A DNA stretch of 64,000 nucleotides, taken from sequence record OP778610. One strand, given 5' to 3'. The first letter of the stretch is position 1, and each line of letters begins with the position of its first letter. The position numbers were made by a program, and so were the translations under genes. Shown piece after piece: positions 48,688 through 63,200 of the stretch. The notes below the pieces were generated by a model. It searched no databases and was not told where the DNA came from. It worked only from the letters and a program-made list of their open reading frames with translations. This DNA comes from Escherichia phage W70.

Positions 48688-49193
48688 TTTCCTCTAAAGT
48701 TGCCTTCCAGTTCAGGGTATTTTTCATTTTTTAGATCGAGGTAAGCTTGTTTTGCTTCCTCTTCTGTTTTGCAATACTTCACGTACTCTCGACCACCCCT
48801 GTTAAGTCTTGCTTGCCAGCAATTACTCTTTTTATGCCAACGATAACCTTTACTCAGTGACCTGTTTACGTTGTTTGCAGATCTATCGACTTCTCGCAGA
48901 TTCCAACCTGCATTATTTTGTCTATTCCCGTCTATGTGATCAATATCTCCAAGAGGCCAATACCCATTAAGAATGAAAAACACAACTCTATGCGCCCTAT
49001 AAGTTTTGTCATTAAGATTCCCGTAAAAATAATTACGATCTCCTTTCTTACATGTTGTGAAGGCGGGATCTCCTATCTCAGACCTTATTCTCTTTATCTT
49101 CCAACGAAGACCTGTATAACTTGACTCATCAACCCCCAGCGATAACTTTATATTTTCAAGTTCCTCCTCGGTTGGGACTCTAACTTTTGTCAT
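48684..49193 (-). CDS. HNH homing endonuclease (HNH_3/AP2-type)
   Basis: YTGLRWK; DHIDGNRQNNAGWNLREVDRSAN. Confidence 0.8.
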   Translation of the reverse strand: MTKVRVPTEEELENIKLSLGVDESSYTGLRWKIKRIRSEIGDPAFTTCKKGDRNYFYGNLNDKTYRAHRVVFFILNGYWPLGDIDHIDGNRQNNAGWNLREVDRSANNVNRSLSKGYRWHKKSNCWQARLNRGGREYVKYCKTEEEAKQAYLDLKNEKYPELEGNFRGK

Positions 49194-52875: not shown

Positions 52876-53376
52876 TTATTTCCAATAAAATTTACCATTA
52901 AGATGAGGGTAGAGTTCAAGTTTCTTTTTCTCGTACCACTCCCTCGCTTCTTTTTCACTTAAGGTGTTTTTAGTATACACCCTAACTCCGCACTTTACAA
53001 CACTTCTCCAACAATTTTTCTCTGTACACCAAAAATAACCACGAGCTATTTTATTAGCACCGTTATCCAAATGATCAACCTCTCGGAGATTATCAGGATT
53101 GTTGTTACTTTTATCTCTGTCTATATGGTCTATTATACCACTAGGCCAATAGCCTCTGTCAAGAAAAAATACAACTCGGTGACAAAGATACGGCTTATTC
53201 AAAAATCTACCAGAGAAATACCCACTCTTTGTTACTGTGGTCATTGCTGGGTCACCAACCAAAGCCCTTGGCCCAGGTGATAACTTCCAACGAAGAAAAC
53301 TTATACTTGTGTCATCTACGAAAAGATAATCATTGATTGCATAAAGTTCCTTATCACTTGGGATGTATATTTTCAT
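52876..53376 (-). CDS. HNH homing endonuclease (HNH_3/AP2-type)
   Basis: SFLRWK; DHIDRDKSNNNPDNLREVDHLDN. Confidence 0.8.
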   Translation of the reverse strand: MKIYIPSDKELYAINDYLFVDDTSISFLRWKLSPGPRALVGDPAMTTVTKSGYFSGRFLNKPYLCHRVVFFLDRGYWPSGIIDHIDRDKSNNNPDNLREVDHLDNGANKIARGYFWCTEKNCWRSVVKCGVRVYTKNTLSEKEAREWYEKKKLELYPHLNGKFYWK

Positions 53377-61315: not shown

Positions 61316-61394
61316 GCGGGTGTATCTCAACGGTCTTCTAAACCGTCGTTAATCGAGTAATTGGAGTATGAAGGTTCGAGTCCTTCCTCCCGCG
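61316..61394 (+). ncRNA. tRNA-like element (noncanonical; possible pseudo-tRNA or stable RNA)
   Basis: Canonical T-arm GAAGG-TTCGAGT-CCTTC and 7-bp acceptor-like helix with one mismatch; anticodon-like hairpin with loop CTTCTAA (TCT); no clean D-arm. Confidence 0.4.
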
Positions 61395-61621: not shown

Positions 61622-61650
61622 TTGACATAATCCTATTATACTGCTAATAT
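61622..61650 (+). promoter_or_regulatory. sigma70-like promoter (TTGACA-17-TAATAT)
   Basis: Hexamers upstream of ORF 61678. Confidence 0.5.
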
Positions 61651-62075: not shown

Positions 62076-62297
62076 AAGTTTTCTTTAAGGTAGTTCTTAC
62101 TTTAGCAGAGTAAATCTTCGGCAAGTGGCGGTAACCACTTTACCGATACCTCATAGTCAGTGCTGCAAACACTGGCTACCTTAAAGAGAATTTAACTCGT
62201 CGAATAAGGAAGATGCTGATCTCAAAGTGAGGTCACTTACCGCAAGGGGTGTGCATAGACTCCCGCTTCCGAATAGACTATGTGGCGAGATGTATTT

Positions 62298-62376
62298 GGG
62301 GACGTGGCAGAGCGGTCGAATGCGCCTGACTGTAAATCAGGTATCCCACACGGTGGTTCGAATCCATCCGGCCCCA
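62298..62376 (+). tRNA. tRNA-Tyr (anticodon GTA)
   Basis: AC arm CCTGA-CTGTAAA-TCAGG; T-arm GGTGG-TTCGAAT-CCATC; acceptor with one A-G mismatch; CCA encoded. Confidence 0.7.
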
Positions 62377-62382
62377 CCAAAT

Positions 62383-62455
62383 TTTCCGTTAGGCTTACAG
62401 GATAAGATTCCCACAACATATCGTTGTGATACTGGTTCGAATCCAGTACGGAAAC
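62383..62455 (+). ncRNA. tRNA-like element (noncanonical anticodon arm)
   Basis: Perfect acceptor TTTCCGT/ACGGAAA and T-arm ACTGG-TTCGAAT-CCAGT; internal hairpin CACAAC-ATATC-GTTGTG. Confidence 0.45.
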
Positions 62456-62582
62456 CAAATTAAGCCGTGATGTGATGTAATCACTGACCTCTTTGAAGGA
62501 TCATGGCATTTTATACAAAAACCTGAATAATTTAGGTTTTAATTCCTGGGGTTCGTAGCCCTATTACTAAGAGGACTTAACT

Positions 62583-62966: not shown

Positions 62967-63038
62967 TTGGGGATTAGCCAAGCGGTAAGGCATCGGATTT
63001 TGATTCCGACATTCACTGGTTCGATTCCAGTATCCCCA
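62967..63038 (+). tRNA. tRNA-Gln (anticodon TTG)
   Basis: Acceptor TGGGGAT/ATCCCCA (U1-A72); AC arm TCGGA-TTTTGAT-TCCGA; T-arm ACTGG-TTCGATT-CCAGT. Confidence 0.9.
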
Positions 63039-63046
63039 GCCAATTA

Positions 63047-63121
<75 letters not shown>

Positions 63122-63174
63122 CCAATTTACCCTCATATAATAACAATAATATAATCTCCTCTCCTTCGCCTCAG

Positions 63175-63200
63175 CCTCCCTCATTTGGGAGGCTTTTTTA
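63175..63200 (+). terminator. rho-independent terminator
   Basis: CCTCCC-TCATTT-GGGAGG hairpin plus TTTTTT. Confidence 0.7.

What the first reader, a model, noticed from the sequence alone, without database searches (positions are those of the whole stretch)
62383..62455. Second tRNA-like element with perfect acceptor and T-arm but aberrant anticodon arm
A 73-nt unit sits immediately 3-prime of tRNA-Tyr. It has a perfect 7-bp acceptor (TTTCCGT/ACGGAAA) and T-arm (ACTGG-TTCGAAT-CCAGT). The central hairpin is CACAAC-ATATC-GTTGTG, a 6-bp stem with a 5-nt loop, and the variable region is only 2-3 nt. It could be a decoy, a pseudo-tRNA or an unusual tRNA.
Basis: seen in the sequence. Interest (0 to 1): 0.5.

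Follow-up and report, generated by a model that had tools for sequence, protein, structure and literature searches.

The report
Anticodon-less tRNA look-alike in coliphages
Next to tRNA-Tyr, this E. coli phage carries a conserved RNA gene that keeps the shape of a tRNA but has no usable anticodon. It cannot read codons and may act as a tRNA mimic, though its function is untested.

Summary
Window 62383-62457 (+), in Escherichia phage A73 (Vequintavirinae), folds as a four-arm cloverleaf. It has a perfect 7-bp acceptor stem and a canonical T arm. Its D-like arm carries G18G19. Its central hairpin has 6 bp and a 5-nt loop, where a tRNA has a 5-bp stem and 7-nt anticodon loop.

Software does not accept it as a tRNA. 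ARAGORN makes no call at default settings, and the Rfam tRNA model scores 26.4 bits against a threshold of 29.

It is not a one-off. Orthologues occur in the four A73-like phages found (A73, A7_1, LTH01, UPEC06), in about 70 Phapecoctavirus genomes (there between tRNA-Ile and tRNA-Met, always unannotated) and in phiEB49. The helices are kept through three compensated double substitutions. Among 12 distinct Phapecoctavirus sequences, no shared polymorphism breaks a helix. The central loop varies freely in sequence and length (3-5 nt), and the 3' CCA is not conserved. Its nearest relatives are phage tRNA-Arg genes.

Best reading: a non-decoding tRNA-shaped RNA derived from tRNA-Arg, released from the tRNA array transcript. 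It probably acts as a tRNA mimic or decoy, but that step is inference only. The main rival is a decaying tRNA relic kept only for clean array processing. No description of it turned up in the literature searches.

The parts
62298..62379 (+). Upstream neighbour tRNA-Tyr(GTA), with encoded CCA. It lies in the same array and presumably on the same transcript.
   Evidence: ARAGORN; Rfam tRNA 58.2 bits.
62380..62382 (+). 3-nt spacer AAU. U at position -1 is the base preferred by bacterial RNase P. That preference is from my own knowledge; cleavage was not tested.
   Evidence: Sequence. The orthologues in Phapecoctavirus also have T at -1.
62383..62457 (+). The whole tRNA-like unit: 72 nt to the end of the acceptor stem, plus CCA.
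   Evidence: Family covariance model R1 scores 91.1 bits. Rfam tRNA scores 26.4 bits, below the threshold of 29. ARAGORN makes no call at default settings.
62383..62389 (+). Acceptor stem, 5' strand UUUCCGU. It pairs with 62448-62454.
   Evidence: Pair 3:70 covaries, U-A to C-G.
62392..62411 (+). D-like arm. GG (62392-93) pairs with CC (62410-11). CUUA (62394-97) pairs with UAAG (62403-06). The loop CAGGA (62398-62402) carries G18G19 and A20. AUU (62407-09) is a bulge.
   Evidence: RNAalifold predicts the CUUA/UAAG hairpin. Pair 11:28 covaries, G-C to A-U. A 27-nt stretch (62386-62412) is 100% identical in phiEB49.
62412..62428 (+). Central hairpin CACAAC-AUAUC-GUUGUG, in place of an anticodon arm. 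The stem is conserved. The loop varies in sequence and length.
   Evidence: Loop variants seen: AUAUC, GUAUC, GUCUC, CUUA, UUUA, CUA, UUU.
62429..62430 (+). 2-nt linker AU where a tRNA has a 4-5-nt variable region.
   Evidence: Sequence. Position 48 is polymorphic, U or C.
62431..62447 (+). T arm ACUGG-UUCGAAU-CCAGU.
   Evidence: Pair 49:65 covaries, A-U to G-C. The loop is invariant.
62448..62454 (+). Acceptor stem, 3' strand ACGGAAA.
62455..62457 (+). CCA directly after the 7th acceptor pair, with no discriminator. It is not conserved in Phapecoctavirus, which has ACCU, ACAU or ACCC after a 1:72 mismatch.

Best explanation
The element is a conserved, non-decoding tRNA-shaped RNA that descends from a phage tRNA-Arg-type gene.

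Shown:
- It keeps the acceptor/T-arm minihelix, the T loop and a D-type loop with G18G19, which are the features of the tRNA 'elbow'.
- The anticodon arm is replaced by a short hairpin with a conserved stem and a freely varying 3-5-nt loop, so there is no anticodon.
- The helices have been preserved by selection after the anticodon loop was lost.

Inferred:
- It is co-transcribed with the tRNA array. RNase P cuts it out at its 5' end, and 3' trimming follows.
- The stable L-shaped product acts in trans as a tRNA mimic. It would occupy a host or defence factor that recognises the tRNA body, acceptor end or D loop rather than the anticodon, as a decoy or an uncleavable competitor.

Confidence that it is a structurally constrained, non-decoding tRNA-like RNA is about 0.8. 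The figure below is for the whole statement, including the trans-acting mimic step.
For: 1. Structure. The cloverleaf is both the MFE fold (z about -2.8) and the RNAalifold consensus. 93.9% of pair cells are standard pairs, against 35-45% when the partners are slid by 1-3 columns.
2. Covariation. 3:70 changes U-A to C-G, 11:28 changes G-C to A-U, and 49:65 changes A-U to G-C. Six of the 8 substitutions between A73 and ESCO37 form these three compensated pairs. Random placement gives three or more with frequency 5e-5.
3. Constraint after loss of the anticodon. Among 12 distinct Phapecoctavirus sequences, all lacking an anticodon loop, 6 shared polymorphisms fall in 29 unpaired sites. None that breaks a helix falls in 44 paired sites (Fisher p = 0.003). 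The only shared change at a paired site is A-U to G-U.
4. No decoding. The loop is 3-5 nt with variable sequence. Relaxed ARAGORN gives four different 'anticodons' for the orthologues. Default ARAGORN, the Rfam threshold and a record annotated with tRNAscan-SE all miss it.
5. It does not look like a drifting relic. It is 83% identical between A73 and ESCO37, while the shared Gly, Gln, Pro and Met tRNAs are only 56-75% identical. It occurs in three unrelated phage lineages in three different array contexts. It is absent from the sister groups tested: phi92-like, rV5-like, Certrevirus and Seunavirus.
6. Ancestry. The best non-family hits of model R1 are tRNA-Arg genes of JEP1, phiEB49 and T4, at 38.1, 37.7 and 30.0 bits. 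The only E. coli matches are T arms of tRNA-Arg genes.
7. Plausible targets exist. Many E. coli defences act on tRNA bodies, stems or tails, and phage tRNA arrays counter them (PMC12445682, PMC12851939, PMC11555353, PMC11464382).
Against: - No expression, processing or binding data exist. The trans-acting decoy step is pure inference.
- All three compensated pairs lie on one branch (A73-like versus Phapecoctavirus). They could predate loss of decoding if the two lineages lost the loop independently. The A73-type arm still has 5-bp + 7-nt dimensions if C32-G38 opens.
- Within Phapecoctavirus the element is the most variable unit of its neighbourhood: about 12 variable sites, against 1 in tRNA-Ile and about 5 in tRNA-Met.
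- The 1:72 pair and the CCA have decayed in Phapecoctavirus.
- Other aberrant or pseudo tRNAs occur in these arrays, so gene decay is common here.
- A stoichiometric decoy against an enzyme would need very high expression.
Confidence: 0.42

Rival explanations
1. It is a relic tRNA (pseudo-tRNA-Arg) with no function of its own. It lost decoding because another tRNA-Arg(UCU) is present. It persists because a compact, foldable, RNase P-cleavable unit inside a polycistronic tRNA array is harmless, or mildly useful in cis. It could give the upstream tRNA a clean 3' end and avoid mispairing with neighbours.
For: - The loop, the 1:72 pair and the CCA decay in Phapecoctavirus.
- The element varies more than the flanking tRNAs.
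- These arrays hold other aberrant or pseudo tRNAs.
- A73 has a separate tRNA-Arg(UCU)-like gene at 61316-61394 with an intact anticodon loop.
- LTH01 and UPEC06 still show UCU in the loop.
- Only 2-3 nt separate the element from the preceding tRNA's CCA.
Against: - Shared polymorphisms avoid helices (p = 0.003), and compensated pairs are present.
- Identity between subfamilies is higher than for the real tRNAs.
- It has been acquired or retained in three lineages.
- In Phapecoctavirus it lies between two tRNAs that each have their own RNase P site, so it is not needed as a processing handle.
Confidence: 0.35
2. It is a genuine decoding tRNA with a non-canonical anticodon arm. The C32-G38 pair would open to give a 7-nt loop, with anticodon UAU in A73 and UCU in LTH01.
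For: - The A73-type arm is exactly 17 nt, which fits 5 bp + 7 nt.
- Relaxed ARAGORN calls the LTH01 copy tRNA-Arg(UCU).
- From my own knowledge of E. coli ArgRS identity elements, the LTH01 copy has A20, C35 and U36, and an A before CCA.
- The phiEB49 relative has a normal-looking loop UUAACAA and is called tRNA-Val(AAC).
Against: - Position 33 is A or G, not U. Position 37 is C, not a purine. C32-G38 closes the loop to 5 nt.
- The 'anticodon' differs between near-identical phages: UAU in A73 and A7_1, UCU in LTH01.
- The Phapecoctavirus arm is only 13-14 nt with a 3-4-nt loop, and those copies encode no CCA.
- It falls below the Rfam threshold and gets no default ARAGORN call.
Confidence: 0.06
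3. It is a tRNA-like RNA that is charged through its acceptor end or D loop and used outside translation, or that serves as a substrate or regulator of a tRNA-modifying or CCA-adding enzyme.
For: - The acceptor/T-arm minihelix is intact and CCA is encoded in A73-like phages.
- The D-loop sequence GGAUA with A20 is invariant.
Against: - CCA and the 1:72 pair are not conserved in the largest clade.
- It has no G3:U70, no long variable arm and no G-1. From my own knowledge, these are the features that allow anticodon-independent charging in E. coli.
Confidence: 0.07

Closest known systems
Bacteriophage T4 stable RNAs, species 1 (rnaC) and species 2 (rnaD), in the T4 tRNA cluster
   Same: They are small stable RNAs encoded inside a coliphage tRNA array, directly downstream of tRNA-Arg. 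The phiEB49 relative of our element also follows a tRNA-Arg. The 3' part of rnaC has a tRNA-like acceptor stem and a T arm, CCGGGUUCGAAUCCCGG, but no canonical anticodon arm. Their function is still unknown (my own knowledge).
   Different: There is no sequence homology beyond the T arm: model R1 gives only 12.7 bits on rnaC's T arm. The T4 RNAs are 119-139 nt, not tRNA-sized. Our element is a complete 72-nt four-arm cloverleaf.
Canonical bacterial or phage tRNA (Rfam RF00005), specifically phage tRNA-Arg(UCU/CCU)
   Same: It shares the 7-bp acceptor stem, the 5-bp T stem with a UUCGAAU loop, U8 and A9, G18G19 and A20, and a position in a tRNA array. Its nearest sequence relatives are tRNA-Arg genes.
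   Different: - No 7-nt anticodon loop, no U33 and no purine at 37.
- A 2-nt variable region.
- The D stem is offset by two extra bases, with a 5-nt loop.
- No discriminator in A73, and no CCA in Phapecoctavirus.
- Rfam score of 26.4 bits, below the threshold of 29.
Viral and cellular tRNA mimics that are processed like tRNAs but do not decode (murid herpesvirus 68 vtRNAs, mascRNA, the tRNA-like domain of bacterial YrlA Y RNAs)
   Same: The concept is the same: a cloverleaf or L-shaped RNA with acceptor and T arms, recognised by tRNA-processing enzymes, with a degenerate anticodon region. This comparison rests on my own knowledge and on PMC4201824 for YrlA.
   Different: There is no homology. 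No match to the YrlA or mascRNA models fell on the element. The element has no Ro60-binding helix. It is the only one of these encoded in a lytic coliphage tRNA array. Processing was not tested here.
Phage tRNAs that evade or replace tRNAs hit by host defences (T5 tRNA-Lys versus PARIS, phage tRNA-Tyr versus retron Eco7 and Septu, phage tRNA-Thr versus P2 OLD)
   Same: The genomic setting is the same (phage tRNA arrays of coliphages), and so is the arms-race logic. Changes concentrate in the anticodon arm (PMC11464382, PMC11555353, PMC12445682, PMC10264068).
   Different: Those are working tRNAs that still decode. This element cannot replace a cleaved tRNA, so any anti-defence role would have to be as a mimic or inhibitor. 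That mechanism has not been shown for any phage tRNA-like RNA in the literature I could search (one search found none).

Membership tests
Canonical tRNA (Rfam RF00005 / ARAGORN) | 7-bp acceptor stem and a 5-bp T stem with a T-psi-C-type 7-nt loop | tested here: met
   UUUCCGU/ACGGAAA and ACUGG-UUCGAAU-CCAGU.
Canonical tRNA (Rfam RF00005 / ARAGORN) | Anticodon arm of 5 bp plus a 7-nt loop, with U33, a 3-nt anticodon and a purine at 37, and the anticodon conserved among orthologues | tested here: not met
   A73 has a 6-bp stem and a 5-nt loop; Phapecoctavirus has a 5-bp stem and a 3-4-nt loop. Position 33 is A or G and position 37 is C. Relaxed ARAGORN gives the orthologues four different anticodons.
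Canonical tRNA (Rfam RF00005 / ARAGORN) | D arm at positions 10-25 with G18G19, and a variable region of 4-5 nt or more | tested here: not met
   G18G19 and A20 are present. The 4-bp stem starts two bases late, the loop has only 5 nt, a 3-nt bulge follows and the variable region is 2 nt.
Canonical tRNA (Rfam RF00005 / ARAGORN) | Score at or above the curated detection threshold | tested here: not met
   Rfam gives 26.4 bits against 29, and 24.6 bits for the phiEB49 relative. ARAGORN makes no call at default settings. A record annotated with tRNAscan-SE omits the orthologue.
Canonical tRNA (Rfam RF00005 / ARAGORN) | Discriminator base followed by 3' CCA, and aminoacylation | tested here: inconclusive
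   A73-like copies have CCA directly after pair 7, with no discriminator. Phapecoctavirus copies have a 1:72 mismatch, then A, then CC, CA or CCC. Post-transcriptional CCA addition and charging cannot be tested with these tools.
Neutrally decaying tRNA pseudogene | Substitutions fall without regard to base pairing | tested here: not met
   No shared polymorphism breaks a helix in 44 paired sites, against 6 in 29 unpaired sites (p = 0.003). Three compensated pairs have a chance frequency of 5e-5. The sample is small and all the covariation lies on one branch.
Neutrally decaying tRNA pseudogene | Derived from a tRNA gene and no longer able to decode | tested here: met
   The nearest relatives are tRNA-Arg genes. 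There is no anticodon loop.
tmRNA (tRNA-like domain) | Acceptor and T arm joined to a tag-peptide reading frame and pseudoknots | tested here: not met
   ARAGORN finds no tmRNA. Rfam finds no tmRNA match. The unit is only 72 nt.
YrlA / bacterial Y RNA | tRNA-like domain plus a Ro60-binding helix, and a match to RF02553 | tested here: not met
   No RF02553 match falls on the element. The weak 22-bit hit at 62990-63104 lies on tRNA-Gln and tRNA-Pro and is far below the threshold of 69 bits.
T4 rnaC/rnaD-type stable RNAs of phage tRNA clusters | Sequence or structure homology to T4 species 1 or 2 RNA | tested here: not met
   Model R1 matches only the T arm of rnaC, at 12.7 bits. The resemblance is in position and concept only.
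Trans-acting tRNA mimic or decoy (functional class) | Accumulates as a stable processed RNA and binds a tRNA-recognising factor | not testable with these tools
   This needs RNA-seq or northern blots, RNase P assays, pull-downs and phage genetics.

The most novel reading that the evidence does not exclude
Coliphages of at least three lineages carry a dedicated anticodon-less tRNA mimic, evolved from tRNA-Arg. It would neutralise a tRNA-targeting host immunity or toxin system by acting as an uncleavable, tRNA-shaped competitive inhibitor rather than as a replacement tRNA. That would be an RNA-based anti-defence mechanism not yet described for phage tRNA arrays.
Probability: 0.2. Interest if true: 0.8.

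Novelty: new variant of a known kind. Interest (0 to 1): 0.5.

Why it matters
Phage tRNA arrays are now understood partly as counter-measures to bacterial immune nucleases that destroy tRNAs. Every case known so far involves working replacement tRNAs. A conserved array member that keeps the tRNA body but has discarded the anticodon would point to a second strategy, molecular mimicry by RNA. It would also give a tractable coliphage model (phAPEC8-like or A73-like phages on E. coli K-12) for the old question of what non-tRNA stable RNAs in phage tRNA clusters, such as T4 species 1 and 2, are for. On the practical side, the element is missing from the annotation of every phage record inspected here, and its phiEB49 relative is annotated as tRNA-Val(AAC), which is doubtful. 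If it proves to be a relic, it is still a clear example of a tRNA gene caught after loss of decoding while selection still acts on its fold.

Tried and rejected
- Standard tRNA. Rejected by default ARAGORN, by Rfam below threshold, and by relaxed ARAGORN giving mutually inconsistent anticodons.
- Annotated tRNA-Ile. The 'tRNA-Ile' label on the blast hits is only a 1-nt overlap with the preceding true tRNA-Ile(GAT). The element itself is unannotated.
- Wider family. Pattern scans of IMG/VR, JGI metagenomes and GTDB genomes returned only Phapecoctavirus-type copies, phiEB49, ordinary tRNAs and chance coding matches. Model R1 found no member in rV5-like JEP1, Certrevirus PBES02, Seunavirus GEC_vB_MG, phi92, a Klebsiella Stephanstirmvirinae phage or T4.
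- Host copy. There is none in 5,426 complete E. coli genomes, only T-arm matches of 20-24 nt in tRNA-Arg genes.
- A partner protein shared with phiEB49. Local tblastn found only HNH homing endonucleases and one small ORF, which is uninformative. Pfam on neighbouring ORFs gave nothing relevant.
- Literature. Seven full-text searches found no description of this element or of any anticodon-less tRNA mimic in phage arrays. The 'pseudo-tRNA' mentions are generic tRNAscan flags.
- A naive paired-versus-unpaired test that counted 1:72 and 35:41 as pairs in Phapecoctavirus was not significant (p = 0.34). The test became significant only with the clade's own structure and shared polymorphisms. The evidence is therefore moderate, not overwhelming.
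- A minus-strand ORF annotated over the orthologue in UPEC06, and window ORFs 62227-62463 (+) and 62237-62458 (-), are artefacts of translating through tRNA genes.

Full report
**Where it is.** The window is the right end of Escherichia phage A73 (OP778609.1, Vequintavirinae). The finding lies in a plus-strand tRNA array. ARAGORN calls five tRNAs there: Met, Tyr, Gly, Gln and Pro. A promoter-like site lies at 61622-61650, and a terminator-like hairpin at 63173-63194 follows tRNA-Pro. No feature is annotated over 62383-62457 in A73 or its relatives.

**Checking the observation.**
- The acceptor stem is perfect: UUUCCGU (62383-89) pairs with ACGGAAA (62448-54).
- The T arm is ACUGG-UUCGAAU-CCAGU (62431-47).
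- The central hairpin is CACAAC-AUAUC-GUUGUG (62412-28).
- A 2-nt linker (62429-30) joins the hairpin to the T stem.

I add two points. The 5' region forms a D-like arm: CUUA pairs with UAAG around the loop CAGGA, which holds G18G19 and A20, and GG pairs with CC across a 3-nt bulge. CCA (62455-57) follows the seventh acceptor pair directly, so there is no discriminator base. ViennaRNA returns this cloverleaf as the MFE fold, with z = -2.8.

**Does software call it a tRNA?** It does not.
- ARAGORN at default settings makes no call.
- Rfam's tRNA model is silent on a 3-kb scan at E up to 10. On the isolated stretch it gives 26.4 bits, below the gathering score of 29. It reaches that score only by skipping most of the D region and the loop.
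- With ARAGORN thresholds relaxed to 90% or 80%, the orthologues are called tRNA-???(CAUA), tRNA-Arg(UCU) and tRNA-Ser(ACU), and the phiEB49 relative tRNA-Val(AAC). There is no conserved anticodon.

**A family, not an accident.** BLAST finds the element in three groups.
- Four A73-like phages (A73, A7_1, LTH01, UPEC06), always 3 nt after a tRNA-Tyr, even where the tRNA-Tyr allele differs.
- About 70 Phapecoctavirus genomes (Stephanstirmvirinae). There it fills an unannotated 78-nt gap between tRNA-Ile(GAU) and tRNA-Met. One of these records was annotated with tRNAscan-SE.
- A more distant relative in phiEB49 (Drexlerviridae), 1 nt after tRNA-Arg(CCU), annotated tRNA-Val(AAC). It shares a 27-nt stretch of the D region at 100% identity but has different, compensated acceptor pairs and a 7-nt loop. 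Rfam scores it at only 24.6 bits.

Scans of IMG/VR, JGI metagenomes and GTDB genomes found no further kinds. A family covariance model found no member in rV5-like, Certrevirus, Seunavirus, phi92-like or T4 arrays. E. coli genomes hold no copy.

**How it evolves.**
- On a 15-sequence alignment, 93.9% of pair cells are standard pairs, against 35-45% when partners are slid. RNAalifold independently recovers the four arms.
- Three pairs changed on both sides: 3:70, 11:28 and 49:65. These account for 6 of the 8 substitutions that separate A73 from ESCO37 outside the loop. Random placement produces three or more compensated pairs with frequency 5e-5.
- Inside Phapecoctavirus every copy already lacks an anticodon loop. 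The shared polymorphisms sit at positions 27, 35, 39, 48, 72 and 75, all unpaired. None of them breaks a helix (0 of 44 paired sites against 6 of 29 unpaired sites, p = 0.003). The one shared change in a stem is A-U to G-U.
- The loop of the central hairpin is free to vary: AUAUC, GUAUC, GUCUC, CUUA, UUUA, CUA and UUU.
- In Phapecoctavirus the 1:72 pair is a U.U or U.C mismatch, and the tail reads ACCU, ACAU or ACCC rather than NCCA.
- The element is 83% identical between the two myovirus subfamilies. The isoacceptor tRNAs they share are 56-75% identical.

Caveats: the covariation lies on a single branch. The sample is 15 distinct sequences. A cruder version of the site test was not significant. 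The element is also the most variable unit of its immediate neighbourhood.

**Origin.** The best non-family matches of the model are phage tRNA-Arg genes: JEP1 UCU at 38.1 bits, phiEB49 CCU at 37.7 bits and T4 at 30.0 bits. The only E. coli matches are T arms of tRNA-Arg genes present in 90 of 5,426 genomes. LTH01 and UPEC06 still carry UCU in the loop. The element is therefore most likely a derivative of a phage tRNA-Arg.

**What it most likely is and does.**
- Shown: it is a tRNA-shaped RNA gene that cannot decode, and its helices and elbow-forming loops are under purifying selection.
- Inferred from position and from established tRNA biology: it is transcribed with the array and released by RNase P. 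U at -1 and the 12-bp acceptor/T stack fit a substrate. The 3' end would then be trimmed.
- Hypothesis: the product works as a tRNA mimic that engages a factor reading the tRNA body rather than the anticodon. The setting makes an anti-defence role attractive, because E. coli defences cut tRNA anticodon arms, variable loops, acceptor stems and CCA tails, and phage arrays counter them (PMC12445682, PMC12851939, PMC11555353, PMC11464382, PMC10264068). Nothing here tests that role. I give the full statement about 0.4, and the core claim (a constrained, non-decoding tRNA-like RNA) about 0.8.

**Rivals.**
- A relic tRNA-Arg retained only because a foldable unit is harmless or helps array processing, about 0.35. 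It is favoured by the decay of the CCA, the 1:72 pair and the loop, and by the presence of other aberrant tRNAs in these arrays. It is disfavoured by the helix-sparing polymorphism, the cross-lineage retention, and the fact that in Phapecoctavirus both neighbours have their own RNase P sites.
- A true but odd decoding tRNA, about 0.06.
- A chargeable tRNA-like RNA used outside translation, about 0.07.

**Comparison with what is known.** The closest analogues in position and concept are the T4 stable RNAs rnaC and rnaD. They also sit just after a tRNA-Arg in a tRNA cluster, and rnaC carries a tRNA-like acceptor/T-arm domain. There is no homology beyond the T arm, and their function is also unknown (my own knowledge). 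The element fails the defining tests for canonical tRNA, tmRNA and YrlA, and it fails the neutrality expectation for a plain pseudogene. Literature searches found no description of it.

**Verdict.** This is a real, conserved feature that I could not find described, and a new variant of the known kind 'viral tRNA-like RNA'. Interest is moderate at 0.5: the anatomy and evolution are clear and unusual, and the function is open.

Noticed in passing
window 61316-61394 (+): A second non-canonical tRNA-like gene. It has an intact 7-nt anticodon loop CUUCUAA (UCU, Arg), only about 5 nt where the D arm should be, and a 23-nt 'variable' region. Rfam tRNA scores it 35.8 bits but ARAGORN misses it. It is 99-100% identical in A7_1 and LTH01. 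It is 87% identical in an unannotated gap of phi92 (L044 132-198), where the anticodon stem is fully compensated (ACGGU/ACCGU to CCUGA/UCAGG). It is probably a functional, structurally odd tRNA-Arg(UCU).
   Followed up: partly
window 62076-62297 (+): The spacer upstream of tRNA-Tyr is about 90% identical to the spacer that follows tRNA-Ser(GCU) in Phapecoctavirus. That is unusually conserved for non-coding DNA between subfamilies. No Rfam match was found. It could be a structured or regulatory RNA.
   Followed up: no
L005 598-674 (phiEB49, NC_023743.1 43830-43906): The gene annotated tRNA-Val(AAC) belongs to this aberrant family. It has the same odd D region and scores 24.6 bits on the Rfam tRNA model, below threshold. 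A34 in a Val anticodon would also be unusual for bacteria. The annotation is doubtful. No other record in the phage collection gave a full-length match at high identity.
   Followed up: partly
L041 4523-4621 (JEP1); L044 (phi92) 275-364 and 2248-2322, plus unannotated slots at 130-211 and 1028-1099; L045 642-717, 2403-2478 and 2595-2668: tRNA arrays of related myoviruses contain several further aberrant or unannotated tRNA-like units. These include an ARAGORN 'tRNA-???' with a 4-base anticodon, two tRNAs flagged as pseudogenes in phi92, and weak R1 hits in gaps. Degenerate or non-canonical tRNA-like genes seem common in these arrays.
   Followed up: no
L046 1909-2047 (-) (T4 rnaC, NC_000866 70908-71046): The 3' ~90 nt of T4 species 1 RNA aligns weakly as a tRNA-like unit. 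It has the acceptor pairing ACGGAACG/CGUUUCGU and the T arm CCGGGUUCGAAUCCCGG, without a canonical anticodon arm. It is a long-known parallel case whose function is also unknown.
   Followed up: partly
window 52876-53376 (-), 48708-49184 and 8698-8967: HNH homing-endonuclease genes (Pfam HNH_3) resemble two phiEB49 ORFs. Homing endonucleases could explain the mosaic exchange of tRNA-array segments between unrelated phages.
   Followed up: no
L042 5727-5802 (Cronobacter phage PBES 02): ARAGORN calls a normal tRNA-Asn(GUU) in a gap of the record's annotation, where the tRNA numbering skips R006.
   Followed up: no
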